In this document: one piece after another, positions 13,701 through 61,526 of the stretch
How positions within the stretch are numbered: position 1 is the first letter of the stretch
Layout of the letters: every line of letters starts with the position of its first letter
DNA from: an uncultured bacterium
GTDB lineage: Bacteria > Patescibacteriota > Minisyncoccia > Phycocordibacterales > GWA1-40-21
Reading direction: 5' to 3'
Length of the DNA: 64,000 nt
Assembly (NCBI GenBank): GCA_963840885.1
Contig: CAWJAN010000006.1
Coordinates: 46,601-110,600 of the forward strand
The notes under the pieces: generated by a model
Database searches by the model: none
Told to the model about the DNA's origin: nothing
Seen by the model: only the letters and a program-made list of their open reading frames with translations
Position numbers and translations under genes: made by a program

Positions 13701-15079
13701 TTTTCATCCTGATAAAGTGTGACTGTTCCGGTGCTTATCGTCGCATCACTCGTCTCATCTGTCGATGTCGATATAAAATTTATTGCTCCCCCACCTGTTA
13801 TAAGCGTTCCGCCGGTGTTTATAAAATTCCACCAATGGCCGCTAAAATTTAATGTGTAAGATGACAGGTCTAGCGTTCCTCCGGATGCCAAAATAAGGCT
13901 ATTAACATTTTGATCTTGGGTCAGGTCGATAGTCCCAGTATTTATAGTTGCGCTGTCGGAAGATCCAGGAAAATCAATGCCTTCAACGGGAACATACCCT
14001 GATGGAAGCACGAGTCCGTTATAGGTGGTCGAAGCGGTGCCGTCCGGATTAACGACGGTTATATTATTGTTATGAGCATCGGTAACATAAATATATCCTG
14101 ATGTCGTGAGAGCCATACCAAAAGGCTGAGAAAATCCGAATGAAGAATAAGTTGTCGAAGCGGTGCCGTCCGGATTGTAGACCACGATACGATGCGATCC
14201 ATTGGATTCCAATGCGTATATATCTCCCGATGAGGAGAGTGCCACGTTTTCAGGGACGAAAAGTCCGCTGCCGTTATAGCTTGTCGAAGCGGTGCCGTCC
14301 GGATTTAAGATATCAATGCGGTTATTCGAAGCATCGGCAACATATATTTCTCCTGAAGGCGAAAAAGTTATGCCGAAAGGATATATCGGAGCCAGGCTTC
14401 CTCCGTCATAGCTTGTGGATGCTGTGCCGTCCGGATTTAAGATGACAATTCTGTTATTGCCTTCATCGGATACATAAATATCTCCGGATGGGGAAACTAT
14501 TACGTATCTAATATTGCTAAAAGGGGCCAGGCTTCCGCCGTTATAGCTTGTCGAAGCGGTGCCGTCCGGATTTAGGACAACGATTCTATTATTTGAAGCG
14601 TCTACTATGTACATTTCTCCTGACGGTGAGAGATTTATTCCTACGGGACCGATTGGAGCCAAGCTTCCGCCGTTATAGCTTGTGGATGCTGTGCCGTCCT
14701 GGTTCAGGACTACTATTCTATTATGTCCGTTATCAGCTATGTATATTTCTCCAGAGGTAGATGAAATCGCCAAATTATAAGGAGCGCTAAAACCAATTAA
14801 TCCTCCGTTTGTTCCCCAGGTAGTGGTGCTATTCCAGTCACCGCCTGAGCTTGTGTTGAAGGCGGTTGAAAAATTATTGCTGGAATTTGAAACGAATATC
14901 TTTTTAAAATTTTCGTTAGAAAATAAAAAAACTGCTGAAATTATTAAAATTATGAGTAGGAATATTGAAATAAATCCTGCTGGTTTCGCCTTTATTTCTG
15001 TAAATTTCATTTGGTGGATTAGGATTATTATTGCTACGGTGTTTATTATAATAGATTTTATAATAAAGACACTAATCAC
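10763..15079 (-). CDS. Large secreted surface protein of 1438 aa. It has two blocks of NHL-type beta-propeller repeats, a PT-rich linker and a putative peptidoglycan-binding-like segment. The conserved C-terminal multi-TM anchor module is shared with the 250..1941 product.
   Basis: NHL repeat signature SPSGE(I/M)Y(I/V)(A/S)DxxNNRIV(V/I)LNPDGTASTSY appears at least six times, and a second block reads IYVSDYFGNYIKEFDSSGN / LYVADTGHNRIVKF / LYVSDSGNHNVVKL. The linker is PTPTPTPTPLPTPVPTPLPTPAPAPTPTPTP. 'DVKDLQIFLNTNGF...YYGTVTADSVTNFQNAYASDIL' resembles a PG_binding_1 domain. The C-terminal module aligns with the 563-aa protein. Confidence 0.9.
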   Translation of the reverse strand: MISVFIIKSIIINTVAIIILIHQMKFTEIKAKPAGFISIFLLIILIISAVFLFSNENFKKIFVSNSSNNFSTAFNTSSGGDWNSTTTWGTNGGLIGFSAPYNLAISSTSGEIYIADNGHNRIVVLNQDGTASTSYNGGSLAPIGPVGINLSPSGEMYIVDASNNRIVVLNPDGTASTSYNGGSLAPFSNIRYVIVSPSGDIYVSDEGNNRIVILNPDGTASTSYDGGSLAPIYPFGITFSPSGEIYVADASNNRIDILNPDGTASTSYNGSGLFVPENVALSSSGDIYALESNGSHRIVVYNPDGTASTTYSSFGFSQPFGMALTTSGYIYVTDAHNNNITVVNPDGTASTTYNGLVLPSGYVPVEGIDFPGSSDSATINTGTIDLTQDQNVNSLILASGGTLDLSSYTLNFSGHWWNFINTGGTLITGGGAINFISTSTDETSDATISTGTVTLYQDENIRSLVLVDGGTLDLNGYILNVYGNWSNTGGILEDTSASSSGTVNFTGTSSQTISGSNTFPNLTKFSSSGSSLLFDQTATTTISGSISLSGSSGNLLSINTGGASIPQFNSELLSSLSLTFGVAHDSADNIYVSDYFGNYIKEFDSSGNLINTIATSSLSDPVQLSTDISDNLYVANGSSNKIMEFDPSGNFLISSPDITTIPSVQSTGISGGIAVDSSGNIYVTSNYGPTGGILKLDSNFNLIASTTSANSQGFSFNSTSGSLAVDPAGTFIYLADTGHNRIVKFNVSDLSYVSSYTDVSSPYGVAVDSNGYLYVSDSGNHNVVKLDSDLSLISQFGTFGTTSDGQFSNPTQLTVDSNNNIYVADYGHNGGDVQKFSPPAIVPFNILQTGSGTSSFSFLDVSGSTNLSADAFDCTNGCVDGGSDVNWLFPHRPHGRRATTTLPTPVLPPYTGPSGGSTEPPIVPTTTPATTTPATSTPPVIIPPTLPKGFCFTKNLMPGTSDPDVKDLQIFLNTNGFDQATSGPETLGSEMEYYGTVTADSVTNFQNAYASDILSPYGLSSGTGNFGYYSRKKANDILGCQTEPLPVVPPEPPTPTPTPTPLPTPVPTPLPTPAPAPTPTPTPAPTAPVSNSQSFNNAIKGISDTLNPIIRMASSTVNDPVGSIVVKVISTVGLVIGGIAYSAALLFVNPLTWSETWTIPARFFGLLSESLGLKKKQRKWGTVYDSVTKRPLDPAYVTLIDIATNKTAATAITDLDGRYGFLVMPGKYRIMAQKTNYSFPSKKILGTFDDVYNDLYHGEELVIGSLGEIITKNIPMDPLKFDWNEFAKNRANMNTFTKGSTVIWSRIYDLLFVIGAFVALIALIFAPAPYNLIVAGLYVIAYLLNYVVFRTKKAGTIKDSKTGLPLSFAVIKIYREGQDDSPIAKKIADKYGRYYILLPQGRYYLKIDRKNDDESYTEAFKSPVVDLKGGIVNENLVV

Positions 15080-16187: not shown

Positions 16188-16260
16188 GGGTGCCTAACCG
16201 GATTCGGACCGGTGATAACGGATCCACAGACCGTTGTGTTACCACTACACCATAGGCACC
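16188..16260 (-). tRNA. tRNA-His (anticodon GTG) with an extra G-1. CCA is not encoded.
   Basis: The reverse complement is G-GTGCCTA..TGGTGTAGTGGTAACACA..ACGGT CTGTGGA TCCGT..CCGGTCCGAATCCGG..TAGGCACC-C. G-1 pairing with C73 is characteristic of tRNA-His. Confidence 0.85.
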
Positions 16261-18174: not shown

Positions 18175-18225
18175 ATGATAATTATAGCAGATAAAAAATA
18201 GGATTCATTATCCTGTTTAAATTTG

Positions 18226-18309
18226 TGCACGGGAGAGGACTCGAACCTCCAAAGGATTGCGCCCGCTACCACCTCAAGGTAGTGCGTCTACCAATTTCGC
18301 CACCCGTGC
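18226..18309 (-). tRNA. tRNA-Leu (anticodon GAG) with a long variable arm.
   Basis: The reverse complement is GCACGGGTGGCGAAATTGGTAGACGCACTACC TTGAGGT GGTAG + long arm CGGGCGCAATCCTTTGGAGG + GTTCGAGTCC..CCCGTGC A. Confidence 0.85.
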
Positions 18310-19611: not shown

Positions 19612-19684
19612 GGGCGATTAGCTCAGTTGGTAGAGCGCTTCATTTACACTGAAGATGTCGCAGGTTCAAGTCCTGCATCGCCCA
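19612..19684 (+). tRNA. tRNA-Val (anticodon TAC).
   Basis: GGGCGAT TA GCTCAGTTGGTAGAGC G CTTCA TTTACAC TGAAG ATGTC GCAGGTTCAAGTCCTGC ATCGCCC A. The 7-bp acceptor stem pairs cleanly. Confidence 0.85.
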
Positions 19685-19959
19685 CAGAAAAAAGAATCTC
19701 TTTTTTGATGCAGGACTTGAAAGCCGGAGCGCGGCGGCGCGAGGCGGGGTCGCGAGATTTTTCAGCAGAAAAATACTCGTGACCAAGTCCTGCATCGCCC
19801 ACAAATTTACAGCGTTTTTTCTTATGACAAACTTGCTCGGTAGGAACTCGACCCTTACAAGGTCAGTACCCGGATTGGACTTTTCCGTTCATTATCATTC
19901 CGGAAAAATACACAATCGGGCTTCGATTCCTACACGGAAGCGCCCCGCGCTTCCTCTCA

Positions 19960-20004
19960 GGCACATTTTAAAAAACCGCGATAAGCGGTTTTTTAAAATG
20001 TGCC
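19960..20004. terminator. Perfect 20-bp-stem palindrome (ggcacattttaaaaaaccgc / gcggttttttaaaatgtgcc) abutting the 3' end of tRNA-Arg(TCT). Likely a bidirectional terminator or repeated palindromic element.
   Basis: Read directly from the sequence. A related element with the same CACATTTTAAAAA core occurs at 51486..51543. Confidence 0.5.
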
Positions 20005-20072
20005 TCCGGTAGGAATCGAACCTACATCAAAGCCTTAGAAGAGCTCTGTTCTATCCATTGAACTACGAAGGC
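20001..20072 (-). tRNA. tRNA-Arg (anticodon TCT).
   Basis: The reverse complement is GCCTTCG TA GTTCAATGGATAGAAC A GAGCT CTTCTAA GGCTT TGATG TAGGTTCGATTCCTAC CGGAGGC A. Confidence 0.85.
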
Positions 20073-21105: not shown

Positions 21106-21645
21106 TTATTTCTTATCGTAAACAAGCGTTATGGAAAAATTGGCATTAGTATTATTTATAAGATACGATACCGGCAGATCGACGTTCGTGAAAGTTCCAT
21201 CATCCACTAGAGCTTTATTGAAAGACGTGAGATCGTCTCTTGTGGACGCTATTCCTGATATTGTTATTTTCTGCGAATTTCCCGCGGCAGCTGATATGGA
21301 GAAAGAAGATATGGATATATTATTATTTTTTAAAGAAATTATTTTATCTATAATGCCGCTATCGGAAATATTTGCCGTATCTCTCTCCAGAATATCCGCC
21401 ATACTATTCAGCTTTTTGACCAGCGCAACGACATCGTTATTGCTTTTGGAGGCCAGCGACTCGGTTATATCAAGCTGGTTTGCCACCGTCTTGCTTTCAT
21501 ATTTAGAAAAGATAGCAGAAGGTATGAAAAGAAGTATGAGGAGGAACAGGCCGAGAAAAACCGCCACGAGAAGAAATATGAGGCCTCTTAATATATATTC
21601 GAGCGTTACCTGTCTCTTATTTTTTTGTGGCAGAAAATCAAGCAT
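21106..21645 (-). CDS. PilN-like type IV pilus assembly protein (putative).
   Basis: N-terminal MLDFLPQKNKRQ (INLLP-like motif) followed by a single TM helix and a periplasmic domain. It overlaps the pilM-like gene by 8 bp, indicating an operon. Confidence 0.5.
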   Translation of the reverse strand: MLDFLPQKNKRQVTLEYILRGLIFLLVAVFLGLFLLILLFIPSAIFSKYESKTVANQLDITESLASKSNNDVVALVKKLNSMADILERDTANISDSGIIDKIISLKNNNISISSFSISAAAGNSQKITISGIASTRDDLTSFNKALVDDGTFTNVDLPVSYLINNTNANFSITLVYDKK

Positions 21646-22690
21646 TTTTGTTGATATTTTTTAATTTCATGTAAGGCATGGCCAGGCCTACGGCAGTTGC
21701 AAAATTAAGCGATTCTTTGAAATCTATGGGGGGAAGATAATTGTTTATGTCAAAAGTGTTGGACCATACATTTGCCGGTACTATTTCCATATCTATATTC
21801 TGCCCTACGTGGTTCAAAAAACCGGGAAGATCGGCCGAATCGCCGCACGCTATAATCTTGCGTATCGCGTCATCTCCTCCTATTGATTTTGACTTCACAT
21901 AATCTATGAATTTTTCAAGTTCATCCTTTATTATTGAGTATATATTAAGCGAGGATGCCATTGAATTTTTATTCTGATTGGAAGGCGAGACTCCAGCTTT
22001 TTCCAGGCTTTCATCTATGTAGCTTTTTCCTATATTCAGTACCGATGTAAAACGCACGGTATTTCCGTCAACAAAGGAAAAAATAGTCGAACTATATTTG
22101 ACATTCAATATTACATAGCTTTTCTTGTCGTCTTTCGGTATTACCGATCTTGCCGTCATCCTAGATTCTATTTCAAAATTCACCGGAAAAAATCCTGAAG
22201 CTACTATGGCATCTGAATAACTTTCTATCGTGGTTTTAGGTATGACCGATACGCTTGCGAATATGCCGCCGTCCTGCTTGTCTTCTCCTATTATTTCATA
22301 TTCGAAAAGAACCTCGCCGGCTTTGAACGGAACGTTTTCTTCAAGATGGAACTCAAGGGCCTGCCTGATTTCGCCCTTGTTCATTTTCGGCAATCTTATT
22401 TCAAAAATATAGGTCTTCTGTTCCGGAACGGAAACGTTCAGGGATTCTACTGAAATCTTGTTTTTCAGCTCAGAAAAAACTTTTGTGAACGCATCCTTGT
22501 TCAGTATGTCTCCGTCTTTCATGGTATTTTCCGGAAAGACTATTTCTCCGAAGTTTTTTACCGATAATCTTCCGTGTTCATTGAAAAATTCCAAAAATCT
22601 CACCGAGTGGTTTGAAATTTCAACTCCTGCCACCCTTATGGAAAGATAATCTAGTGGATAGGCAATCTTTTTAAAAAAATCAAGCTTCAT
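21638..22690 (-). CDS. PilM-like type IV pilus assembly ATPase-fold (actin-like) protein (putative).
   Basis: 350 aa. The N-terminus (LDYLSIRVAGVEISNHSVRF) resembles the PilM/FtsA-like fold, and the gene sits upstream of the PilN/O-like genes. Confidence 0.5.
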   Translation of the reverse strand: MKLDFFKKIAYPLDYLSIRVAGVEISNHSVRFLEFFNEHGRLSVKNFGEIVFPENTMKDGDILNKDAFTKVFSELKNKISVESLNVSVPEQKTYIFEIRLPKMNKGEIRQALEFHLEENVPFKAGEVLFEYEIIGEDKQDGGIFASVSVIPKTTIESYSDAIVASGFFPVNFEIESRMTARSVIPKDDKKSYVILNVKYSSTIFSFVDGNTVRFTSVLNIGKSYIDESLEKAGVSPSNQNKNSMASSLNIYSIIKDELEKFIDYVKSKSIGGDDAIRKIIACGDSADLPGFLNHVGQNIDMEIVPANVWSNTFDINNYLPPIDFKESLNFATAVGLAMPYMKLKNINKNA

Positions 22691-22741: not shown

Positions 22742-23341
22742 CTATTTTCTCCTGAATATTTGGAATGCCACCGGAAGCACGGATAATATTATTATCGCCA
22801 CTATTACCGGCAATATGTATTTGTCTATATCCGGAATAGCCTGTCCAAGAAAGTACCCCGTGAAAACCAGGCCGAATGACCACGCAAATCCTCCGAGCAT
22901 ATTGAAAAATGTGAAATCCGTGTATTTCATATTGCCGACTCCGGCAACTATGGGAGCAAAAGTTCTTACGATCGGCGTAAATCTGGCCATGACTATGGTC
23001 TTTTTGCCATATTTTTCATAAAACTTTTCCGCGCTTTCCAAATGTCTCTTATGGAAGAAAAAAGAATCCTCCTTAGTAAAAATCTTCGGCCCGACTTTTT
23101 TGCCGAACCAATATCCGGTATTGTCGCCAAGCACCGCGCATACAAAAGAGCCTACGGCAAGAAGACCTACGTCAAGATAATTCTGCGAAGCAAGGAATCC
23201 GGCAGTAAAAAGAAGCGAATCACCGGGAAAAAAGAAGCCGAAAAACAAGCCGGACTCCGCATAAACCACGAAAAATAGGCCTATGAGGCCGAGAGTCTTT
23301 ATGATAAGTATGGGATCCAAAAGGTTTGAAATATTAGGCAT
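22742..23341 (-). CDS. DedA-family (SNARE-associated) membrane protein.
   Basis: GLFFGFFFPGDSLLFTAGFLAS and VMARFTPIVRTFAPIVAGVGNMKY motifs. Confidence 0.8.
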   Translation of the reverse strand: MPNISNLLDPILIIKTLGLIGLFFVVYAESGLFFGFFFPGDSLLFTAGFLASQNYLDVGLLAVGSFVCAVLGDNTGYWFGKKVGPKIFTKEDSFFFHKRHLESAEKFYEKYGKKTIVMARFTPIVRTFAPIVAGVGNMKYTDFTFFNMLGGFAWSFGLVFTGYFLGQAIPDIDKYILPVIVAIIILSVLPVAFQIFRRK

Positions 23342-23347
23342 TTGTTT

Positions 23348-24103
23348 TTATTTGAATTTTGTTCCTTCCGGAATATATTCCGGCACTTCCATAAGAGCGA
23401 ATTTTTCTCCGCTTGATACAGCAAGTATCATGCCGTTTGAATCGAGACCCATCATTTTTCTTGGTTCAAGATTGGTGACGAAAGCGACTTTTTTCCCTAC
23501 AACGGAATCTGCGGAAGGAAAATATTTGGCTATTCCGGAAAGAATCTGCCTGGGTTCGCCTTCGGCAAAATCAACTGATAGCTTGAGCAGCTTGTCCGAG
23601 CCTTCTATCGGCTCCGCAGAAAGTATTTTCCCTACTTTCATCTCTATCTTGGAAAAATCGTCGATGCTGATTTTTTTATTTTTCCCGGCCTCGGCTTCAG
23701 CCTGATTTTTCTTTTCATTCCTTGCTTTTTCCTTGTCCAAAAAAGTCTGGAGTATTATGGAAGCGGCGGAAGCATCCAGCATATCCGTCTTGCCGAAAGT
23801 TTTTTCCACCTGCATGGAAGACATAAATTCCGGCTCCAGGAAAACCGGGAGCTTTGCGGCATTTCCCAGTTCGCGCTTGAAAGATATTATTTCCGGATTT
23901 ATCTTATTGTCTTCTCCCTTATAATCTTTTGATTCTCCTATAACCAGAGCCTCTGCGGCATTTTCAGCGCAGAAATCGGCTATATTTTTTATCAGGCTGC
24001 CATTGTTTTCCATTACTATCTTAGGGAAAGCCACCTTTCCTTCGCTGTCGGAAACGGCTATTCCAACCCTCTTTTCTCCGTAATCTATTCCGAGATATTT
24101 CAT
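23348..24103 (-). CDS. ruvX: Fusion protein. An N-terminal Holliday-junction resolvase-like RuvX/YqgF domain is joined to a C-terminal tRNA-binding (Myf/CsaA/EMAP-type OB-fold) domain. The start used here is the internal Met; the ORF track begins 37 codons upstream at 24214.
   Basis: The YqgF domain reads MKYLGIDYGEKRVGIAVSD...AEALVIGESKDYKGEDN...DASAASIILQTFL. The C-terminus KVGKILSAEPIEGSDKLLKLSVDFAEGEPRQILSGIAKYF...KKVAFVTNLEPRKMMGLDSNGMILA matches the tRNA-binding domain found at the MetRS C-terminus and in CsaA. Confidence 0.7.
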   Translation of the reverse strand: MKYLGIDYGEKRVGIAVSDSEGKVAFPKIVMENNGSLIKNIADFCAENAAEALVIGESKDYKGEDNKINPEIISFKRELGNAAKLPVFLEPEFMSSMQVEKTFGKTDMLDASAASIILQTFLDKEKARNEKKNQAEAEAGKNKKISIDDFSKIEMKVGKILSAEPIEGSDKLLKLSVDFAEGEPRQILSGIAKYFPSADSVVGKKVAFVTNLEPRKMMGLDSNGMILAVSSGEKFALMEVPEYIPEGTKFK

Positions 24104-24185
24104 ATTTTTATATAGCACATCATACATCAATAAGGTCATAATAAAAAGTTTTGCCAGCTGGAAAAATTTTGCTACAATAAGCGGC

Positions 24186-24443
24186 ATGAGCACAGATATA
24201 TTAAGCCAGTCCATGGCAACTTATATTTCATCCAATCCTTGGATAATATTGGTAATCATTTGGTCTGCGGTTTGGAAACTGATAGCCCTTTGGAAAGCCG
24301 CAAGGCATGGCCAGATGACTATATTTATAGTCCTTGCCTTATTGAACACCATAGGCATTCTTGAAATCATTTACATAATCTATCTTCATTACAAAGACAA
24401 GAAAGATTCGATGAATTCTCCGAAATCTCCTATGCAAAGTTAA
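24186..24443 (+). CDS. Small two-TM membrane protein, hypothetical.
   Basis: ORF with two hydrophobic helices, followed by a rho-independent terminator. Confidence 0.4.
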   Translation: MSTDILSQSMATYISSNPWIILVIIWSAVWKLIALWKAARHGQMTIFIVLALLNTIGILEIIYIIYLHYKDKKDSMNSPKSPMQS

Positions 24444-24454
24444 AACCAAAACAA

Positions 24455-24488
24455 AGAGCCGCGCCTGAAAGGCGCGGCTCTTTGTTTT
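24455..24488. terminator. Rho-independent terminator, bidirectional.
   Basis: agagccgcgcc-tgaaa-ggcgcggctct followed by TTGTTTT. It lies between convergent genes. Confidence 0.6.
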
Positions 24489-24508
24489 GGGCGAATAATA
24501 TTATCAGA

Positions 24509-25318
24509 TTAGAAACCGAAGAGATGCATGAAGAATCCTCCGATATTTCCTAAAAATCCTTTTATTCCTCCTGCTTTTGACGAAGCCACTGGTTTAGCCG
24601 ACTGGTCAATGACGAGTGAAGCTGTTACTGAATTTCCGTTTACCGTTCCCTGCACGAGAATATTATCTCCAATGGCGATACCAGAAACAGAACTTGTTGA
24701 ATTTCCTTTCGTTACCGTTGCGTTAGTAACATCGATTGTAAATTCCGTATTGCTGTTATTTTTTAAGGTTACCGTGTTTCCACTGATTGCAGAAACCGTT
24801 CCTGCCACAACAGGATTACCGTCTCCTGAAATCATAGATTCGGTCGATGTCGATCTGGATCCTTTTTGAAAACCTGAAGCGCCATTTCCCATTGTTGGCA
24901 TTTTTCCGTCACGGATTGTTTTTGCCACAACATTTGTTCCACTAACTGTTCCCTGTATCATTACGGTATCTCCTGAAGCGATAGATGAAACCGAGCTTGT
25001 GGCATTGTCTTTATAAACTGTCGCTGAACTTGCATCAACCGTATAAGTTGTTGCCGCTACTGCCGCAGTTGAGGTTCCGAAACCTTTTCTTGCCGGAGAA
25101 TTAACTGTAAGTGTGTTTCCGCTGACGGATGCTACCGTTCCGAATACTCCCTGGCCCATTCTCATTCCTCCCTGTATTGATCCTGGAGCTCCTCTGAAGC
25201 CCTGATGATTTGCATAAGGTGCGCTTGCGGGCGTATCGGCAAAAGCCATGCCTGCAAAACCTATCCCTGCAATCATAACTGATGCTGCTAATGTTCCTAA
25301 ATATTTTTTATTATTCAT
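24509..25318 (-). CDS. Secreted Gly/Thr/Ser-rich protein with an internal duplication, hypothetical.
   Basis: Signal peptide MNNKKYLGTLAASVMIAGIGFAGMAFA. The repeats SGDTVMIQGTVSGTNVVAKTI and IGDNILVQGTVNGNSVTASLVI are visible. Confidence 0.6.
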   Translation of the reverse strand: MNNKKYLGTLAASVMIAGIGFAGMAFADTPASAPYANHQGFRGAPGSIQGGMRMGQGVFGTVASVSGNTLTVNSPARKGFGTSTAAVAATTYTVDASSATVYKDNATSSVSSIASGDTVMIQGTVSGTNVVAKTIRDGKMPTMGNGASGFQKGSRSTSTESMISGDGNPVVAGTVSAISGNTVTLKNNSNTEFTIDVTNATVTKGNSTSSVSGIAIGDNILVQGTVNGNSVTASLVIDQSAKPVASSKAGGIKGFLGNIGGFFMHLFGF

Positions 25319-28125: not shown

Positions 28126-28129
28126 ACTG

Positions 28130-28216
28130 CGGAGAGGGCGAGATTCGAACTCGCGAGACCGTTTCCGGCCCTCTAGTTTTCAAGACTAGTGCTTTCAACC
28201 ACTCAGCCACCTCTCC
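28130..28216 (-). tRNA. tRNA-Ser (anticodon TGA) with a long variable arm.
   Basis: The reverse complement is GGAGAGGTGGCTGAGTGGTTGAAAGCACTAGT CTTGAAA ACTAG + long arm AGGGCCGGAAACGGTCTC + GCGAGTTCGAATCTCGC CCTCTCC G. Confidence 0.85.
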
Positions 28217-28620: not shown

Positions 28621-30348
28621 TTAAAATATATCCGCTATCCTGAGCCTTACTTCCGGCCTGCCGCGGAAAAAAGATTTTTCAATATTTGCGAGCAGATTGA
28701 TTTTTTCTCCTTTCTCAATCTTTACGGAATAATTTTCCGGCTTAGTGAAAAAACCTATTGCCGATACGGAATAGCCTCTTGAATTTTTGAAATCAATCTT
28801 CAGATGGTCGCCTTTCTTGCCGAATAGTTTTGCATCATGCACCTCCGCGTTCTGAAACGCAAAAACCGGCTTCGGATTGTCCATGCCAAACGGCGCAAGC
28901 TTGCCAAGCTCGTTGGCAAGCCTCATGTTCACATCATCAATGGAAAGTTTCGCATCTGCTATCATTTCTTTTGAGATTTCTTTATTTTCTATTGATAATT
29001 TTTTATATGATAGCTCGAGCGCATCGGCAAGCACATCTATTTTTTCAAAATTTACCGTGAAACCGCCTGATGCCGCATGTCCGCCGTACTCGTCAAATAT
29101 ATCTCCTGCTTCGCGCATGGTGTCGACGACGCTGACGCAACCGTCTCCGCGGCACGAGCCTTTCAGATTTTTCCCCTCTTCTCTGCCCCAGAGGTAAACC
29201 GGCCCGGAGTGATCATCCATCAGTGAGCTAGCAACAAGGCCTAGAAGCGACGGCTTCCAATCGGGATTGCCCGCCACGAGGACTTTTCTTTTTTTCTCCG
29301 GATCGAATTTCTTCCAGTGGCTTTTTATCTCCTTGACCATTGCGGCGACAATTACCTTTCTGTCGTCGTTTATGGAATTCAGATGCCTGGCGTATTTTTC
29401 GGCTTCTTCATCATTGTCCGCAACAAGCATGCGGAAAGCGTCTTCCGGTATTCCCATGCGAGATGCCGCGTTTATTCTCGGAGAAATCATGAAGCCGATA
29501 TCGTCTTCGGTTAGATTTTTCTGATCGATTTTCAAGATCGACAAAAGTTTTTGGAGCCCTAAGCGCGGAGTTTTGCGCAAAACTTTCAGGCCATAGTATG
29601 CAAAAATCCTGTTCTCGCCGATAAGAGGAACCATGTCGGAGACAGTGGCGATGGCGACCATATCTAGAAGCCACTTTTCCCAGCCTTCTTTAATATCCCA
29701 ATCTTTTCCGTGCTTTTTCAAAAGCGCTTGGACCAGCTTGAAAGATATTCCGGATGCGCAGAGTATTTTTTCCGGATAGCGGCAGCTCGATTGCTTATGA
29801 TTGAGAAGAGCGACCGCTTCAGGCAATTTTTCTTTTCCGTTTACGATTGTAGGAAGATGGTGGTCTATGATAATAAGGTCTATTCCGTGCTTTTTTATCC
29901 TGTCCGCTTCTTTTATATTCGCGGTTCCGCAATCTATTGTTATGATGAGCTTGAATTTTTTCTCGGCAAAAACATCTATAGCATCGTCATTGAGGCCGAA
30001 TCCCTCAAGAACCCGATGCGGGATATAATTCTCGAAATTCCCGTATCCGATTTTTTTGAAAAAATCATGAAGCACCACCGCGCCAGGAATGCCGTCGGCA
30101 TCATAGTCGCTGTAAATAAGGATCTTTTCGTTATTTTTTACGGCGTCATATATCCTTTTGACAGCTTTGTCCATATCATGCATCAAAAATGGATCGTGAT
30201 TCTCCTCAAAAACAGGATTCATAAAATCCCTGGCTTTCTCGGATGTCTTTATTCCGCGGTAAAAAAGGAGTTTCCGTAAAAGTTCAGGATATGCTTTCAA
30301 TTCCTCGCTTGCGCTTTCCGGAATATCTTCTCGAATGGAATACGGCAT
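28621..30348 (-). CDS. recJ: Single-stranded-DNA-specific exonuclease RecJ.
   Basis: DHH motifs (IYSDYDADGIPG, DLIIIDHH) and a DHHA1 region (GGHAASGG). Confidence 0.9.
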   Translation of the reverse strand: MPYSIREDIPESASEELKAYPELLRKLLFYRGIKTSEKARDFMNPVFEENHDPFLMHDMDKAVKRIYDAVKNNEKILIYSDYDADGIPGAVVLHDFFKKIGYGNFENYIPHRVLEGFGLNDDAIDVFAEKKFKLIITIDCGTANIKEADRIKKHGIDLIIIDHHLPTIVNGKEKLPEAVALLNHKQSSCRYPEKILCASGISFKLVQALLKKHGKDWDIKEGWEKWLLDMVAIATVSDMVPLIGENRIFAYYGLKVLRKTPRLGLQKLLSILKIDQKNLTEDDIGFMISPRINAASRMGIPEDAFRMLVADNDEEAEKYARHLNSINDDRKVIVAAMVKEIKSHWKKFDPEKKRKVLVAGNPDWKPSLLGLVASSLMDDHSGPVYLWGREEGKNLKGSCRGDGCVSVVDTMREAGDIFDEYGGHAASGGFTVNFEKIDVLADALELSYKKLSIENKEISKEMIADAKLSIDDVNMRLANELGKLAPFGMDNPKPVFAFQNAEVHDAKLFGKKGDHLKIDFKNSRGYSVSAIGFFTKPENYSVKIEKGEKINLLANIEKSFFRGRPEVRLRIADIF

Positions 30349-31793: not shown

Positions 31794-31865
31794 GCTCCCA
31801 TCGTTCAATGGATAGGATAAATCCTTGCGAAGGATTTGATGTAGGTTCGATTCCTACTGGGAGCA
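31794..31865 (+). tRNA. tRNA-Arg (anticodon GCG).
   Basis: GCTCCCA TC GTTCAATGGATAGGAT AA ATCC TTGCGAA GGAT TTGATG TAGGTTCGATTCCTAC TGGGAGC A. Its body is paralogous to the TCT tRNA-Arg at 20001..20072. Confidence 0.7.
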
Positions 31866-31954
31866 CATGCATGCCTGCAGAACTATGGCCGAAAAAGGAG
31901 ATTGTGCGACTTCAAAAGCGCCCAGTTGGGCGCTTTTAAATTTAATAACAAAAA

Positions 31955-32957: not shown

Positions 32958-34598
32958 TTATTCTTCTTTGGAAAACTCACAAACTAAAGAAACAACCAGT
33001 ACGAGTATGATAGCTGAAAGCAATACTGTAAGCCATGAGACAGTTACTCCTTCTGGTGTAATCCCTGTATTAGGGAGATTCGGTGTGTTAACAAGAACGT
33101 TAGCAAAAGCAAAGGCTACCGCCGATAAACCATTTGCATCTCCTTTGACCGTAGCAATATTATCTGTTGAAACATTAATGTTTGTTTTACAGGTATATGT
33201 CCATATTTCATTTGAATCAAGTAATTTATTTCCATTGTTATCACCGGAAATAAATGTTATTGCTGCACATTTATTATCAGTAAGTGAAACATTGTGAATT
33301 GGAACTGTTCCTGAATTAATTACTGTATATTTATAAGTAACATCACCACCTCCAAAAGTAAACGGTGTTAACTGATTAGGAACTACTACGAGATTAATGA
33401 GTGGTGGCTGTATTGAACTTCCAACTACTACAGTGGCTATCGCAGTAGCAATCGCTGTATGATAATAAGCATCATCGCTATGACCAGTTGCTATGGCAGT
33501 ATTTGTAGTAGTGCTAGTAAGTGTTGTTGAACAAGTATATTTCCAATTTTCTCCGGGATCAAGCTTCTTATCACCGTTCAAATCACCAGAAGAATAAACG
33601 ACGGGAATACATTTATCATCAACAACCGTAACATCAACTAATGCCTGCTGTCCACCAACATTCCAAACATTGTAATTATATGTGACTTTTCCAGATCCAG
33701 CTGATAAAGCTAAAGGACTAGGAACTTTTGTAATTCCAATTAATGGAATTATTGATACTACACCCGGTCTATGTCCTTTAGCAGTAACAACAACCGGTGC
33801 ATTAGATAGTGAAATTGTGTTGCTAATAAGTGTAACTGCGGTTTGTGCCAATGCTCTTCCATTTAATGTCGCACCTGCTCGCATCGCAATATCCGTTTGA
33901 GCTAAAATGATACCTTGCATTTGTGAACCGGCTAAAAGATTTACTGTTCCTGCAACCTGCCAGAAAACATTCTTGGCTTGAGCGCCTCCGCTTAATATGA
34001 TTTTTTTACCGACTGCAAGATCAAGTGTCCCTGATATTTGGAAAACCCAAACATCATTTGCTCCACCTGAAAGTGTGACGTCATTTGTTATTGTTACATT
34101 ACTGCCCCAGGTATAAACACCGGGAGCAAGTGTCATAGTTCCTACTGTTCCGGCACCAATATTTAAATTTGGACCAACTCCAGCTGGTGTTGCTGGTGCT
34201 GAAGCATTGGTATATGCGATTCCCATATCTGAAACAGCATTATCAACTAAAGTTTTGTTTGCTCCAGGTCCAGGCATTACACAAGTATTATCAAAACTTC
34301 CTCCGGGACCACCTGCAAATGTAGCTAATGCATCAACTGTATAAATTGAACCAGTAATTTCTCCGCAAGTAACGCCAATTTGCGCACCACTACCAGCACT
34401 ATTACCAATATTTCCGGTAATAATCGAAGTCGGTACATCAGTAATTCCTGTTTCACCAAGAATTACAAAATTATTCGTATCTATTGATCCCAAATTTATT
34501 GGTGCTGGACCAGCAGCAAATGCAGCAACAGGACCAATAAAACCAATGACTAGAGAAACAATTATCGTTGATATTGAACTCTGACTAAATTTTTTCAT
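32958..34598 (-). CDS. LPXTG-anchored surface protein. It has an N-terminal ice-binding-like beta-helix domain (DUF3494), two DUF11-like Ig-fold repeats and a C-terminal LPNTG sorting signal.
   Basis: After the signal peptide, AAGPAPINLGSIDTNNFVILGETGITDVPTSIITGNIGNSAG and ...NDVWVFQISGTLDLAVGKKIILSGGAQAKNVFWQVAGTVNLLAGSQMQGIILAQT...GRALAQTAVTL match DUF3494. Two repeats read GxVTYxYxVxNxG...VxDxKC...SGDxNGxxxLDxxExWxYTC. The C-terminus LPNTG is followed by a hydrophobic helix and a short charged tail. Confidence 0.85.
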   Translation of the reverse strand: MKKFSQSSISTIIVSLVIGFIGPVAAFAAGPAPINLGSIDTNNFVILGETGITDVPTSIITGNIGNSAGSGAQIGVTCGEITGSIYTVDALATFAGGPGGSFDNTCVMPGPGANKTLVDNAVSDMGIAYTNASAPATPAGVGPNLNIGAGTVGTMTLAPGVYTWGSNVTITNDVTLSGGANDVWVFQISGTLDLAVGKKIILSGGAQAKNVFWQVAGTVNLLAGSQMQGIILAQTDIAMRAGATLNGRALAQTAVTLISNTISLSNAPVVVTAKGHRPGVVSIIPLIGITKVPSPLALSAGSGKVTYNYNVWNVGGQQALVDVTVVDDKCIPVVYSSGDLNGDKKLDPGENWKYTCSTTLTSTTTNTAIATGHSDDAYYHTAIATAIATVVVGSSIQPPLINLVVVPNQLTPFTFGGGDVTYKYTVINSGTVPIHNVSLTDNKCAAITFISGDNNGNKLLDSNEIWTYTCKTNINVSTDNIATVKGDANGLSAVAFAFANVLVNTPNLPNTGITPEGVTVSWLTVLLSAIILVLVVSLVCEFSKEE

Positions 34599-43570: not shown

Positions 43571-43590
43571 TATTTAAATTCTTTTTACTG

Positions 43591-43663
43591 TGCGCCCAGT
43601 AGGAATCGAACCTACGACCGTCTCCTTAAAAGGGAGCTGCTCTACCGACTGAGCTATGGGCGC
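43591..43663 (-). tRNA. tRNA-Lys (anticodon TTT).
   Basis: The reverse complement is GCGCCCA TA GCTCAGTCGGTAGAGC A GCTCC CTTTTAA GGAGA CGGTC GTAGGTTCGATTCCTAC TGGGCGC A. Confidence 0.85.
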
Positions 43664-51485: not shown

Positions 51486-51543
51486 CCCTGCCCGCACATT
51501 TTAAAAACCCCTAAAAAGGGGTTTTTAAAATGTGCGGGCAGGG
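51486..51543. terminator. Long perfect palindrome (ccctgcccgcacattttaaaaacccc / ggggtttttaaaatgtgcgggcaggg). It overlaps the 3' acceptor strand of tRNA-Gly(GCC) and lies downstream of hup, so it is likely a bidirectional terminator.
   Basis: Read directly from the sequence. It shares the CACATTTTAAAAA core with the element at 19960..20004. Confidence 0.5.
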
Positions 51544-51603
51544 AGAATCGGACTCCCATCTAATCCTTGGCAAGGACTCATTCTACCACTAAACTATGCC
51601 CGC
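51533..51603 (-). tRNA. tRNA-Gly (anticodon GCC).
   Basis: The reverse complement is GCGGGCA TA GTTTAGTGGTAGAAT G AGTCC TTGCCAA GGATT AGAT GGGAGTCCGATTCTCCC TGCCCGC A. Confidence 0.85.
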
Positions 51604-58267: not shown

Positions 58268-58378
58268 TTATCATTATACTCGCCTAGCGGACATTGGCAA
58301 AATTTTAAAGCAAAATATTCATTAAAATTCAAAAAATCTCGCATAATTGGCGATTTATAAGTATATATTTACTAATTG

Positions 58379-58449
58379 TCGGAGTGCCGGGATTTGAACC
58401 CGGATCGCATGCTCCCAAAGCATGAATGCTACCGTTACACTACACTCCG
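58379..58449 (-). tRNA. tRNA-Pro (anticodon TGG).
   Basis: The reverse complement is CGGAGTG TA GTGTAACGGTAGCAT T CATGC TTTGGGA GCATG CGAT CCGGGTTCAAATCCCGG CACTCCG A. The C1:G72 pair with A73 is typical of bacterial tRNA-Pro. Confidence 0.85.
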
Positions 58450-60042: not shown

Positions 60043-60062
60043 TTACTTATTGTTTTTATTTG

Positions 60063-60133
60063 TGCGGGCAGGGTGAATCGGACACCCGACCGAAGTTTGG
60101 AAAACTTCTGTTTTACCACTAAACTATGCCCGC
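60063..60133 (-). tRNA. tRNA-Gly (anticodon TCC).
   Basis: The reverse complement is GCGGGCA TA GTTTAGTGGTAAAAC A GAAGT TTTCCAA ACTTC GGTC GGGTGTCCGATTCACCC TGCCCGC A. Confidence 0.85.
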
Positions 60134-60835: not shown

Positions 60836-60907
60836 GCACCCGTAGTGAAATGGATATCACAACAGTCTTCGGAACTGTCGTTGGGGGTTCGAATCCTCCC
60901 GGGTGCA
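60836..60907 (+). tRNA. tRNA-Arg (anticodon TCG).
   Basis: GCACCCG TA GTGAAATGGATATCAC A ACAGT CTTCGGA ACTGT CGTTG GGGGGTTCGAATCCTCC CGGGTGC A. Confidence 0.8.
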
Positions 60908-61526
60908 CAAATTGCAAACAGTTGAAAAACCACTCCTATCCTAAGGCGGTTTTCTTTTGCAATTTGTGAGACGGACGAGCAGAGCGAGGAGTCGGGACCG
61001 ACGGCTTTTCTTTGAGTTCACGAGAAGAAAAAGCTGTTGGCCAAAACAAAAAATATTATTTTATATTTCTCTCCCCTATTTTTATTTTTTAATTCCAAAA
61101 ACTCAAAAATTTTTAACGGACATTAAAAAAATGTGCTAAAATGTTTTTTTAATCCCCAATTCTATTTTGGCCTTATTTTAAGAGCTTTTTTTGACCTAAA
61201 CTGTGGATAACTCTGTGTATATGTGAATTAAAGACAGCTTATCGGACTATTACAAAATTCTTATTTTTAGCGTCTTTTATTAAAAATATGGCTCTAAATA
61301 ATGGTATTATATGAAGTACGTCCTTTTGAAATAAAAAGTCCTATTAAAAACGTTTCTAAGAAACGTTTTTAACGTTTCATGTGAAAAGAATCAACTAAAA
61401 GATAAGATTTTATTGGTTTAAATATCATGATAATTATCTTCCGATATAATATATGTTTAATAACAAGGATATTATGACAATTTCTATATTAGACAAAAAA
61501 TTGTTACTATATAAGCCAATAAGACA

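What the first reader, a model, noticed from the sequence alone, without database searches (positions are those of the whole stretch)
23348..24103. RuvX/YqgF Holliday-junction-resolvase-like nuclease fused to a tRNA-binding (CsaA/Myf-type) OB domain
The N-terminal ~140 aa are a YqgF/RuvX RNase H-fold nuclease. RuvX is implicated in pre-16S rRNA 5' processing. The C-terminal ~110 aa are the tRNA-binding domain found at the MetRS C-terminus and in CsaA/Trbp111.

I do not know this domain combination from model organisms. It points to an RNA-processing role for this RuvX, targeting structured RNA through the OB domain, rather than a DNA-junction role.
Basis: partly seen in the sequence, partly recalled or inferred. 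Interest (0 to 1): 0.5.

Follow-up and report, generated by a model that had tools for sequence, protein, structure and literature searches.

The report
RuvX nuclease fused to tRNA-end reader
This is a real gene in an uncultured, tiny-genome (Paceibacteria/CPR) bacterium that joins a RuvX/YqgF nuclease to a small domain known to grip the CCA tail of tRNAs. In most relatives the two parts are separate neighbouring genes, so the fusion is a new clue, not proof, that this much-debated nuclease works on RNA.

Summary
The complement of 23348-24103 is one stop-free 251-aa ORF. It holds a RuvX/YqgF domain (aa 1-123, Pfam 82 bits), a charged linker, and a Trbp111/MetRS-C-type tRNA_bind OB domain (aa 144-251, 92 bits). 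An AlphaFold model (pLDDT 90.7) matches DrYqgF/MtRuvX and Aquifex Trbp111.

The YqgF catalytic triad (D7/E92/D110) is invariant. So are the Trbp111 residues that hold a 3'-terminal CA (K171, R215, S222, M225).

The fusion is not unique. It occurs in hundreds of Paceibacterota protein clusters. In an unbiased sample, about 80% of related ruvX genes had this OB gene directly downstream, mostly as a separate gene. Fusion arose at least 3-4 times by loss of the ruvX stop codon.

The OB domain is not CsaA-type, and it reads the single-stranded 3' CA end, not structured RNA.

Best model: a dimeric RuvX ribonuclease recruited to CCA-ended RNAs (tRNA), with the substrate unknown. Rivals are a neutral read-through fusion of neighbours, or the OB acting as a dimeriser for DNA-junction cleavage.

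I found no paper describing the architecture. It is a new variant of known kinds, of moderate interest.

The parts
23348..24103 (-). Complete CDS (251 codons plus the TAA stop at 23348-23350) of the RuvX-Trbp111-type fusion protein
   Evidence: Single ORF. The start at 24103 is supported by alignment with 120 homologues. Both Pfam domains score above their gathering cut-offs.
23735..24103 (-). RuvX/YqgF RNase-H-fold nuclease domain (aa 1-123), of the CPR type with G-E-S and E-P-E-F motifs
   Evidence: PF03652 scores 82.4 bits. The AF2 secondary structure runs b1-b2-b3-a1-b4-a2-b5-a-a3. Foldseek matches 7w89, 7ess, 1vhx and 1nu0.
24083..24085 (-). Codon for Asp7 (strand b1), first catalytic carboxylate
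   Evidence: Invariant in 95/95 cluster representatives. It aligns with MtRuvX D28 and corresponds to DrYqgF D22 (PMC9601230).
23933..23935 (-). Codon for Glu57 (end of strand b4, 'G-E-S'), an extra carboxylate that canonical YqgF lacks
   Evidence: E or D in 83/95 representatives. It sits at the C-terminal end of strand 52-59 in the model. Canonical YqgF lacks the b4 Glu that RuvC has (PMC9601230).
23828..23830 (-). Codon for Glu92 (end of strand b5, 'E-P-E-F'), second catalytic carboxylate. The canonical Asp before it is Pro91 here.
   Evidence: E in 94/95 representatives. It aligns with the E of the canonical D-E-R-L motif in 7ess and 1vhx. The DrYqgF E106A mutant loses RNase activity.
23774..23776 (-). 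Codon for Asp110 (start of helix a3, 'D-A-S-A-A'), third catalytic carboxylate
   Evidence: D in 94/95 representatives. The DrYqgF D122A mutant loses RNase activity.
23675..23734 (-). Lys/Glu/Ala-rich linker (aa 124-143, DKEKARNEKKNQAEAEAGKN)
   Evidence: pLDDT falls to 67-79 around the junction, and helix 109-139 continues out of the RuvX domain. Linker length (8-50 aa) and sequence vary freely among fusions.
23351..23674 (-). Trbp111/MetRS-C-type OB domain (aa 144-251), including the N- and C-terminal segments that form the Trbp111 dimer interface
   Evidence: PF01588 scores 92.1 bits and TIGR00399 scores 122.3, above its cut-off. It aligns to Trbp111 residues 6-110 of 111. Foldseek matches 8vtz with TMt 0.89 and rmsd 1.3 A. 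The dimer interface is residues 1-15 and 90-111 of Trbp111.
23429..23461 (-). Codons for Arg215...Ser222...Met225 (L45 loop, 'PRKMMGLDSNGM'), the pocket for the 3'-terminal adenosine. Lys171 (23591-23593) completes it.
   Evidence: These are equivalent to Trbp111 R75, S82, M85 and K33, whose alanine mutants lose tRNA binding. In 33 fused and 104 split OB sequences they are conserved as follows: K/R171, R/K215 in all but two gapped rows, S222 and M225 in every ungapped row.
22742..23341 (-). Downstream DedA/VTT membrane-protein gene, 6 nt after the fusion's stop codon. It belongs to the same conserved block.
   Evidence: Pfam VTT_dom. The block ruvX-OB-(VTT)-pilM-pilN recurs in most related loci.
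21106..22690 (-). pilM (21638-22690) and pilN-like (21106-21645) genes further downstream in the block
   Evidence: Pfam PilM_2 and PilN. Synteny is shown.
24186..24443 (+). Divergently transcribed DUF5652 gene marking the upstream edge of the unit
   Evidence: Pfam DUF5652. The same neighbour appears in loci L001-L006 and in 15 of the 80 genome loci.

Best explanation
SHOWN:
- The gene encodes one polypeptide. It joins the organism's CPR-type RuvX/YqgF nuclease to a Trbp111/MetRS-C-type OB domain through a flexible charged linker.
- The nuclease keeps the catalytic D7/E92/D110 triad and has an extra Glu57.
- The OB domain keeps the 3'-terminal-CA pocket and the segments that make Trbp111 an obligate homodimer.
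- The gene arose by loss of the stop codon between two adjacent co-oriented genes, ruvX and the OB gene. These form a conserved pair in Paceibacteria. Such fusion happened in at least 3-4 lineages.

INFERRED:
- The OB domain dimerises the protein and captures single-stranded 3' ends terminating in CA, that is, mature tRNA CCA tails.
- This raises the local concentration of such RNAs for the tethered RuvX active sites. The same domain does this for MetRS, where it lowers the Km for tRNA.
- RuvX homologues are Mn2+-dependent 5'-3' exo/endoribonucleases, or 16S 5'-end maturases.
- The likely job is therefore RNA maturation or surveillance on CCA-ended RNAs. Because a tRNA's 5' end lies next to its CCA tail, this could be trimming or checking the 5' side of tRNA or tRNA-like transcripts.
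- The exact substrate is unknown.
For: - Domain identity and integrity.
- The catalytic triad is invariant across 95 cluster representatives at 50% identity and across 17 diverse fusions. The triad is defined experimentally for DrYqgF, whose activity is on RNA and not on DNA junctions (PMC9601230).
- The OB pocket residues K33/R75/S82/M85 of Trbp111 are conserved in 33 fused and 104 split homologues. Their role in binding the 3' CA is shown in PMC11286949.
- The fused domain covers the dimer-interface segments.
- In an unbiased RuvX-only scan, ruvX was followed directly by, or fused to, the OB gene in 56 of 71 informative metagenome loci, and in one more the OB gene lay 611 nt away. The pair was found in all 80 best GTDB loci.
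- The fused state sits in at least 4 separate clades. Their linkers are not homologous to one another, and some still carry the old spacer and start codon, such as 'KNMN'.
- The main fused clade is large and old, with more than 120 clusters at 68-80% identity. Fusions are found down to 38% identity.
- A stand-alone RuvX (P0139) occupies the same syntenic slot. The N half is therefore the genome's ordinary ruvX, not an extra paralogue.
- Precedent: fusing this OB fold to enzymes enhances tRNA loading.
Against: - No biochemical data exist for any member.
- The whole block ruvX-OB-(dedA)-pilM-pilN is syntenic. Adjacency could therefore reflect descent rather than selection for the pair.
- About 20% of related ruvX loci have no OB gene next to them.
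- RuvX-DedA read-through fusions exist, although one look-up found only a single contig. This shows that neighbours can fuse without functional logic.
- Trbp111 also binds DNA tails ending in CA.
- RNase P RNA is present in CPR genomes (PMC8172020), so a 5'-leader role would be redundant.
- I could not test whether these genomes' MetRS lacks its own C-terminal OB domain. If it does, the OB half would be a trans-acting MetRS cofactor.
Confidence: 0.5

Rival explanations
1. Neutral 'Rosetta-stone-by-accident' fusion. RuvX and the Trbp111-like protein act independently: RuvX in rRNA maturation or DNA repair, and the OB protein as a general tRNA 3'-end chaperone or a trans-acting MetRS cofactor. 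They are merely neighbours in a tightly packed operon. Loss of one stop codon is tolerated because both domains fold and work on their own across a floppy linker.
For: - Most relatives keep two separate genes (54 of 80; 50 of 71).
- Fourteen of 71 loci have ruvX alone, as do L001-L004.
- RuvX-DedA fusions occur at the same locus.
- Spacers are only 0-20 nt and a third of the pairs are in frame, so fusion is mutationally easy.
- The pTM of 0.54 alongside a high pLDDT suggests no fixed inter-domain contact.
- NCBI names some members 'methionine--tRNA ligase subunit beta'.
Against: - Fusion recurred in at least 4 clades and has persisted through deep divergence. The one RuvX-DedA fusion looked up was found on a single contig.
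- The ruvX-OB adjacency survives where downstream synteny is broken (L038, L039, L045, L051) and where the upstream genes vary.
- A fused obligate dimeriser necessarily changes the oligomeric state of RuvX, which is unlikely to be neutral for a nuclease.
Confidence: 0.3
2. DNA role. The Trbp111-type domain mainly serves as an ultra-stable dimerisation module. It turns monomeric RuvX into a two-active-site Holliday-junction or branched-DNA resolvase, possibly acting on incoming DNA. MtRuvX and HpDprB need dimerisation for junction resolution.
For: - The Trbp111 interface is an exceptionally robust homodimer and has been proposed as a fusion dimeriser.
- MtRuvX and HpDprB resolve junctions as dimers.
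- The CPR-type RuvX has a Glu at the b4 position, as RuvC does.
- The gene sits directly upstream of pilM/pilN (type IV pilus or competence-like genes), and ruvA lies 2-4 genes upstream in 29 loci.
- Trbp111 binds DNA 3' tails ending in CA as well as RNA tails.
Against: - The 3'-CA pocket residues are as strictly conserved in the fused proteins as in the free OB proteins. This would not be needed for a pure dimeriser.
- In most species the OB protein is a separate polypeptide and so cannot dimerise RuvX.
- The best-characterised close structural match, DrYqgF, cuts RNA and not structured DNA.
- The model lacks the extra helices RuvC uses for junction binding. Its topology is YqgF-like, and the RuvC matches are weak (TMt about 0.5).
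Confidence: 0.15
3. Artefact. The two halves are really separate genes, and a sequencing or assembly error removed the stop codon or shifted the frame in this window.
For: Separate genes are the commoner state in relatives, and A-rich junctions are error-prone.
Against: The identical protein was assembled independently in a Logan run. All 120 closest clusters, from NCBI, ENA, JGI and Logan, carry both domains in one protein with homologous K/E-rich linkers. Twenty-six GTDB genomes show stop-free ORFs.
Confidence: 0.02

Closest known systems
RuvX/YqgF family (E. coli YqgF 1nu0/1ovq, B. subtilis YrrK 1vhx, M. tuberculosis RuvX 7ess, D. radiodurans YqgF 7w89)
   Same: The RNase-H-like fold and strand order are the same. 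The catalytic Asp (b1), Glu (end of b5) and Asp (a3) are conserved, as are the G-x-D-x-G and D-A-S-A-A-x-I-L motifs. The size is the same, about 125 aa.
   Different: - Identity to solved members is only 17-26%, and the match is below the NCBIfam equivalog cut-off.
- The canonical D-E-R-L-T motif is E-P-E-F-M here, so the Asp is replaced by Pro.
- G-L-P is G-E-S, adding a carboxylate at the RuvC-like b4 position.
- It carries a C-terminal OB domain that no characterised member has.
Trbp111 (Aquifex aeolicus, 1pyb/8vtz) and the C-terminal domain of MetRS ('MetRS beta subunit', TIGR00399)
   Same: The match is 45% identical with rmsd 1.3 A. It covers the full domain, including the dimer-interface termini. 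The K33/R75/S82/M85 pocket for the 3'-terminal CA is conserved, and a Lys-rich linker precedes the domain as in MetRS.
   Different: The domain is attached to a nuclease rather than being free or attached to an aminoacyl-tRNA synthetase. Phe78, which stacks on C75, is Met here (Arg or Lys in most split relatives). Lys73 is Glu, although in Trbp111 that contact is made by the backbone.
Enzyme + Trbp/EMAPII OB fusions (MetRS-C, plant/human TyrRS-C, Arc1p/AIMP1 in multi-synthetase complexes)
   Same: The design logic is the same: a catalytic module tethered to a low-affinity reader of the tRNA 3' end that raises the local substrate concentration.
   Different: The partner here is a nuclease, not a synthetase or scaffold. 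Two of the three residues needed for the Ala-tRNA deacylase activity of MCP1/Arc1p have no equivalent in this protein: K326 corresponds to Glu213 and R331 to Met218.
Tex / Spt6 (YqgF-homology domain together with an S1 OB domain) - recalled from my own knowledge, not tested here
   Same: A YqgF-like RNase-H-fold domain and an RNA-binding OB fold sit in one polypeptide.
   Different: These are large multidomain transcription factors. Their YqgF-like domain lacks catalytic residues. Their OB fold is S1-type, which binds internal single-stranded RNA, not the Trbp type, which reads the 3' end.
CsaA export chaperone
   Same: The same OB fold and the same dimer architecture (Foldseek TMt 0.85-0.89).
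   Different: The sequence models for CsaA score far below their cut-offs (39.5 against 119.65; 40.2 against 171).

Membership tests
RuvX/YqgF (PF03652) | Match to the family HMM above the curated threshold | tested here: met
   PF03652 scores 82.4 bits against a cut-off of 29.2, covering profile positions 1-133 of 134.
RuvX/YqgF (PF03652) | Equivalog-level match (NCBIfam TIGR00250 / PRK00109) | tested here: not met
   TIGR00250 scores 37.7 against 43.25, and NF001026 scores 29.1 against 155. This is a divergent CPR-type subfamily. Ninety-five cluster representatives share its G-E-S and E-P-E-F motifs.
RuvX/YqgF (PF03652) | RNase-H-like fold with YqgF topology | tested here: met
   The AF2 model has pLDDT 90.7 with the strand/helix order b1-b2-b3-a1-b4-a2-b5-a-a3. 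Foldseek gives 7w89 TMt 0.86, 1nu0 0.80 and 7ess 0.74.
RuvX/YqgF (PF03652) | Three catalytic carboxylates: Asp on b1, Glu at the end of b5, Asp on a3 (DrYqgF D22/E106/D122) | tested here: met
   D7, E92 and D110 are present in 95/95, 94/95 and 94/95 representatives. They are invariant in 17 diverse fusions. Their roles are taken from PMC9601230.
RuvX/YqgF (PF03652) | Nuclease activity (RNA or branched DNA) | not testable with these tools
   This needs purified protein.
Trbp111 / MetRS C-terminal domain (PF01588, TIGR00399) | Match to the family HMMs above the curated thresholds | tested here: met
   PF01588 scores 92.1 against 27, covering profile positions 1-96 of 96. TIGR00399 scores 122.3 against 116.65.
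Trbp111 / MetRS C-terminal domain (PF01588, TIGR00399) | Trbp/EMAPII-type OB fold | tested here: met
   Foldseek gives 8vtz TMt 0.89 with rmsd 1.3 A, 2cwp 0.92 and 1mkh 0.93.
Trbp111 / MetRS C-terminal domain (PF01588, TIGR00399) | Pocket residues for the 3'-terminal C75-A76 (K33, R75, F78, S82, M85 of Trbp111) | tested here: met
   K171, R215, S222 and M225 are identical to Trbp111. F78 is Met218 here (Arg or Lys in most split relatives, as in Arc1p R274). All are conserved in 33 fused and 104 split sequences.
Trbp111 / MetRS C-terminal domain (PF01588, TIGR00399) | Homodimer through the N- and C-terminal flanking segments | tested here: inconclusive
   The flanking segments are present, and the alignment covers Trbp111 residues 6-110. 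No multimer prediction or experiment was possible.
Trbp111 / MetRS C-terminal domain (PF01588, TIGR00399) | Binding of tRNA or of a 3'-CA end | not testable with these tools
   This needs a binding assay.
CsaA chaperone (TIGR02222 / NF007496) | Match above the curated thresholds | tested here: not met
   The scores are 39.5 against 119.65 and 40.2 against 171.
Methionyl-tRNA synthetase | Class I catalytic domain and anticodon-binding domain | tested here: not met
   Only the last 145 or so positions of the MetRS models match (NF008900 positions 503-647; 134.9 bits against a cut-off of 598). The N half is RuvX.
MCP1/Arc1p-type OB-fold Ala-tRNA deacylase | Lys326, Arg331 and Ser335 of TbMCP1, all required for activity | tested here: not met
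   The equivalent residues in the window protein are Glu213, Met218 and Ser222. I mapped them through Trbp111 K73/F78/S82. Only the Ser is kept.
Anti-phage defence nucleases (PADLOC) | Match to any defence-system model | tested here: not met
   No PADLOC family matched at E <= 0.01.

The most novel reading that the evidence does not exclude
In Paceibacteria, RuvX/YqgF is a tRNA-end-guided ribonuclease. The partner OB domain, whether fused or encoded by the next gene, docks on the 3'-terminal CA of a tRNA and places the RuvX 5'-3' exo/endonuclease at the neighbouring acceptor-stem ends.

This would form a lineage-specific step of tRNA maturation or quality control. It may be tied to two oddities of these genomes. 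First, their tRNA genes mostly encode N73-C-A instead of CCA. Second, their RNase P RNAs often lack the CCA-binding UGG motif (PMC8172020).

If true, it would point to an RNA function for RuvX/YqgF, at least in this lineage.
Probability: 0.15. Interest if true: 0.75.

Novelty: new variant of a known kind. Interest (0 to 1): 0.45.

Why it matters
RuvX/YqgF is nearly universal in bacteria and essential in many. Its real job is still disputed: Holliday-junction resolvase, pre-16S rRNA nuclease, antitermination factor or RNA exonuclease (PMC9601230).

This work finds a conserved gene pair, repeatedly welded into one protein, that couples RuvX to a domain whose only known ligand is the 3' CCA tail of tRNA. 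That is independent, genome-derived evidence pointing toward RNA, specifically CCA-ended RNA.

It also suggests cheap, decisive experiments. One is to compare binding of oligonucleotides ending in 3'-CA with their deletions. Another is to compare nuclease assays with and without the OB domain.

The work further shows that CPR-type RuvX has a fourth active-site carboxylate that canonical YqgF lacks. That is relevant to the open question of how YqgF binds two metal ions.

On the cautionary side, in compact CPR operons a fusion by itself is weak evidence of functional coupling.

Tried and rejected
1. **Programmed stop-codon read-through.** All 54 split pairs in the genome scan were in frame. This proved to be selection bias from tblastn ranking. 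In an unbiased RuvX-only scan the in-frame share was 15 of 50 split pairs (15 of 48 if the two overlapping pairs are left out), as chance predicts. Every OB gene has its own ATG.

2. **Does MetRS in these genomes lack its C-terminal OB domain?**
   - There is no metG in the window.
   - There is none in 1.5 Mb of fetched Paceibacteria loci.
   - The MetRS-like representative I used as a query (P0235) turned out to be from Myxococcota, so that search was uninformative.
   - The question remains unresolved.

3. **First alignment for the genome scan.** It was too diverse to yield search patterns and was replaced by A2.

4. **Search of afdb50 for the two-domain architecture.** The library was unavailable.

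5. **A 16S rRNA 3' end ending in CA as an OB ligand.** No 16S gene is present in any fetched locus, so this went untested.

6. **CsaA identity.** Rejected on NCBIfam cut-offs.

7. **OB-fold deacylase activity.** Unlikely, because two of the three essential residues are absent.

8. **Anti-phage defence nuclease.** No PADLOC hit, and the context is a housekeeping syntenic block.

9. **RuvX-OB as a replacement for RNase P.** Unlikely, because CPR genomes do carry RNase P RNA, although diverged.

10. **P0143 as a 'stand-alone' OB protein.** It lies at a contig edge and is probably a truncated fusion.

11. **Literature searches for the architecture.** All returned nothing.
Full report
**1. What is in the sequence**

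The minus strand between 23348 and 24214 is one open reading frame without stops. This start is supported by 120 homologues, whose N-termini align at it. Their lengths are mostly 246-265 aa. The public annotation of this very protein (P0001, 288 aa) uses the upstream ATG at 24214, which would overlap the divergent DUF5652 gene at 24186-24443.

Domain matches:
- Pfam gives RuvX (PF03652) at aa 1-123 with 82.4 bits, against a cut-off of 29.2.
- Pfam gives tRNA_bind (PF01588) at aa 155-249 with 92.1 bits, against a cut-off of 27.
- NCBIfam places the C half in metG_C_term (TIGR00399), scoring 122.3 against a cut-off of 116.65.
- All CsaA models, and the RuvX equivalog model TIGR00250 (37.7 against 43.25), fall below their cut-offs.

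The best solved relatives by sequence are Aquifex Trbp111 (1pyb/8vtz; E = 8e-26) for the C half. For the N half the matches are weak: MtRuvX 7ess and B. subtilis 1vhx.

An AlphaFold2 model built on a 52-sequence alignment has mean pLDDT 90.7 and pTM 0.54. This indicates two well-folded domains without a fixed mutual orientation. Foldseek against the PDB matches:
- the C domain to Trbp111 8vtz (TMt 0.89, rmsd 1.3 A, 45% identity);
- the N domain to D. radiodurans YqgF 7w89 (TMt 0.86), E. coli YqgF 1nu0 (0.80) and MtRuvX 7ess (0.74).

No solved chain covers both domains.

**2. The nuclease half is an intact but unusual RuvX**

Alignment to 7ess and 1vhx, and to 95 cluster representatives at 50% identity, shows a distinct CPR-type subfamily.
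- The canonical G-L-P after strand b4 is G-E-S.
- The canonical D-E-R-L-T after strand b5 is E-P-E-F-M, so the Asp is replaced by Pro91.

The D. radiodurans study defines the YqgF catalytic residues as Asp on b1, Glu at the end of b5 and Asp on a3. The D22A mutant is impaired, and E106A and D122A abolish RNase activity. The same study notes that YqgF lacks the b4 Glu of RuvC, so it has only three carboxylates, too few for two metal ions (PMC9601230).

Here the three equivalents are D7 (95/95), E92 (94/95) and D110 (94/95). They are invariant in 17 diverse fusions. In addition, Glu57 sits at the end of strand 52-59 in the model, which is the RuvC-like b4 position. It is E or D in 83 of 95 representatives. 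The nuclease is thus very probably active and may have a more complete metal site than canonical YqgF. That last point is inference.

These motifs are shared by stand-alone RuvX proteins of 125-145 aa. They are therefore a property of the lineage and not of the fusion.

**3. The OB half keeps the 3'-CA pocket**

The 2.6 A Trbp111-tRNA co-crystal structure and its binding studies show otherwise. The Trbp/EMAPII OB fold binds exclusively a single-stranded 3'-terminal CA dinucleotide.
- It ignores the elbow and the rest of the tRNA body.
- It rejects 3' extensions and 3' phosphates.
- It also accepts a DNA tail.
- Binding depends on K33, R75, F78, S82 and M85 (PMC11286949).

Using the residue-by-residue alignment, these map to K171, R215, M218, S222 and M225. 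Across 33 fused and 104 unfused homologues, K171 is K or R in every sequence. R215 is R or K in all but two gapped rows. S222 and M225 are invariant in every ungapped row. Position 218 is Met in the main fused clade and Arg or Lys in most others, as in Arc1p R274.

The alignment covers Trbp111 residues 6-110. This includes the N- and C-terminal segments (1-15 and 90-111) that form its extremely stable homodimer interface. A fused protein should therefore be a dimer carrying two RuvX domains. This is inferred and was not tested.

The Ala-tRNA deacylase activity recently found in MCP1/Arc1p needs K326, R331 and S335 (PMC12021450). The equivalents here are E213, M218 and S222, so that activity is unlikely.

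**4. How widespread it is, and how it arose**

The word-indexed search found 772 relatives. The best 120 clusters (68-80% identity; NCBI, ENA, JGI and Logan assemblies) all carry both Pfam domains in one protein. Where named, they are called 'Holliday junction resolvase RuvX [Candidatus Paceibacterota]', 'methionine--tRNA ligase subunit beta [Patescibacteria]' or 'putative transcription antitermination factor YqgF'.

The exhaustive search of 1.84 billion cluster representatives gave about 20 full-length fusion clusters, down to 38% identity. It also gave many stand-alone CPR-type RuvX and stand-alone OB proteins.

A scan of GTDB species genomes returned 407 loci encoding a relative. The best 80 carry names such as Paceibacterota, Taylorbacteria, Lloydbacteria, Kaiserbacteria, Parcubacteria and Minisyncoccia, and all contain both halves. 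Only 26 of these are a single stop-free ORF. In the other 54, ruvX ends with a stop codon and the OB gene starts at its own ATG a few codons later.

All 54 were in frame, so I suspected read-through. An unbiased scan of metagenome contigs, using a RuvX-only query from a split clade, settled this. Of its 71 informative loci:

| State | Loci |
|---|---|
| Fused | 6 |
| Split, in frame | 15 |
| Split, out of frame | 33 |
| Split, overlapping | 2 |
| OB gene 611 nt away | 1 |
| ruvX only | 14 |

The in-frame share is the chance one third, so the earlier pattern was a ranking bias. The scan also shows that about 80% of CPR-type ruvX genes have this OB gene directly downstream or fused.

An independent example is L006/L007. 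There, ruvX ends in TAA, 5 nt follow, and then comes the ATG of a 110-aa OB gene, in two assemblies.

A neighbour-joining tree of the concatenated halves places fused genes in at least four separate clades. Their linkers are 8-50 aa, of low complexity, and not homologous between clades. Some still contain the old spacer and start codon. For example, L029 has '...KNMNP...' against its split neighbour L051 with '...KR * YKN M N...'. The L067 group has '...KFKNMN...' against L061 with '...KFKGNN * NN M T...'. Fusion by stop loss has thus happened repeatedly. The tree has no bootstrap support, so the count of events is approximate.

**5. Genomic context**

In the window the gene starts a unit that runs fusion gene, dedA/VTT (6 nt later), pilM, pilN and onward. 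A divergent DUF5652 gene and a strong bidirectional terminator hairpin lie upstream.

The same block, ruvX-OB-(VTT)-pilM-pilN-..., recurs in most related loci. The upstream genes vary: DUF5652, a 154-aa membrane protein, rpsT and ruvA.

A stand-alone RuvX (P0139, 58% identical to the N half) sits in exactly the same slot with no OB gene. The N half is therefore the organism's ordinary ruvX.

The context is not decisive for function. The whole block is syntenic, so adjacency could be inherited. The pil genes and the nearby ruvA could even hint at DNA transactions.

Three cluster representatives are RuvX-DedA fusions. The one I looked up is on a single contig. This shows that neighbouring genes at this locus can fuse without obvious logic.

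No metG lies in the window or in 1.5 Mb of fetched Paceibacteria DNA. I therefore could not test whether the OB half substitutes for a missing MetRS C-terminal domain. The one MetRS query I tried was myxococcal.

**6. Mechanism**

Shown:
- an intact RuvX active site;
- an intact 3'-CA pocket together with the dimer segments;
- a flexible linker;
- a conserved gene pair;
- recurrent and long-lived fusion.

Inferred: the OB dimer captures CCA-ended RNAs (tRNAs; Kd of about 3 uM for Trbp111) and presents them to the tethered nuclease. The same fold does this for MetRS by lowering the Km.

RuvX homologues behave as follows. EcYqgF processes pre-16S rRNA only within 70S ribosomes. DrYqgF is a Mn2+-dependent 5'-3' exo/endoribonuclease with no activity on structured DNA. 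MtRuvX and HpDprB cut junctions as dimers.

The 5' end of a tRNA lies beside its CCA tail, so one plausible geometry has RuvX acting on the 5' side of CCA-matured tRNA or tRNA-like RNAs. However, CPR genomes do carry RNase P RNA. It is diverged, and two-thirds lack the CCA-binding UGG motif (PMC8172020). The actual substrate is therefore open.

My probabilities are:
- about 0.5 for functional coupling in RNA metabolism;
- about 0.3 for a neutral fusion of independently acting neighbours;
- about 0.15 for a dimerisation-for-DNA role;
- about 0.02 for an artefact.

**7. Novelty and verdict**

Both domains are well known, and members are already in public databases under generic names. I found no paper describing the architecture or the gene pair. 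A 2025 survey of ribosome-biogenesis factors in CPR treats yqgF only as 'less conserved' (PMC12641178).

This is a new variant of known kinds, restricted, as far as I could see, to Paceibacteria/CPR. It is of moderate interest because it offers a concrete, testable lead on the disputed function of RuvX/YqgF.

Noticed in passing
window tRNA genes 16188-16259, 18225-18309, 19612-19685, 20000-20072, 28129-28216, 31794-31866, 43590-43663, 51532-51603, 58378-58449, 60062-60133, 60836-60908; also loci L001-L168: In all 11 tRNA genes of the window, the discriminator base is followed by C-A, not CCA. Over 407 tRNA genes in the window and related Paceibacteria loci, position 74 is C in 396. Positions 74-75 are CA in 245 (60%), CC in 108 (full CCA in only 76) and CT in 39. 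This is an unusual gene-encoded 'N73-C-A(A)' tail. It may relate to 3' processing or CCA addition, and it is notable because the OB domain reads a terminal CA. No link has been demonstrated.
   Followed up: partly
window 23933-23935 (Glu57) and 95 homologues (P0121-P0270): CPR-type RuvX proteins carry Glu or Asp at the end of strand b4 ('G-E-S', 83 of 95). This is the position of RuvC's catalytic Glu, which canonical YqgF lacks. They also replace the canonical Asp of 'D-E-R-L' with Pro ('E-P-E-F'). This suggests a rearranged active site with four carboxylates.
   Followed up: partly
P0156, P0201, P0217; L169 1935-2906: RuvX fused to the downstream DedA/VTT membrane protein (322-345 aa) appears in three cluster representatives. 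The one I looked up is on a single contig. It may be a rare real read-through fusion or an assembly error.
   Followed up: partly
P0232 (271 aa) and P0150 (292 aa), from the representatives search: The same Trbp-type OB domain has other partners. One is a NUDIX hydrolase-tRNA_bind fusion. Another is an unknown 165-aa N-terminal region joined to tRNA_bind.
   Followed up: no
window 24104-24214: The public annotation of this protein (P0001, 288 aa) starts at the ATG at 24214. That start overlaps the divergent DUF5652 gene and adds 37 residues that are absent from homologues. It is probably a mis-called start.
   Followed up: yes
window 24446-24490: A perfect 20-bp GC-rich hairpin with U/A tracts on both sides lies between the DUF5652 gene and the DUF5666 gene at 24509-25318. 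It looks like a bidirectional intrinsic terminator.
   Followed up: no
window 1945-10686 and 10763-15079 (minus strand): There are two giant ORFs of 2913 and 1438 aa. These could be large surface proteins of the kind reported in CPR bacteria (a guess from my own knowledge). I did not examine them.
   Followed up: no
window 32958-34598 (minus strand): A 546-aa protein with an ice-binding-like domain (PF11999, 187 bits) plus DUF7507.
   Followed up: no
window 48910-50439 (+), 58513-60042 (-), 28621-30348 (-): The same window encodes RNase Y, a CCA-adding enzyme/poly(A) polymerase-family protein with an HD domain, and RecJ. All three are relevant to RNA-end and DNA-end metabolism in this organism.
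   Followed up: no
loci L032, L043, L057, L059, L086 and others (gene cluster 8), 2-4 genes upstream of ruvX: In 29 of the 80 genome loci, a protein I judged RuvA-like from its sequence alone (no family search run), together with rpsT, lies a few genes upstream of the ruvX-OB pair on the opposite strand.
   Followed up: no
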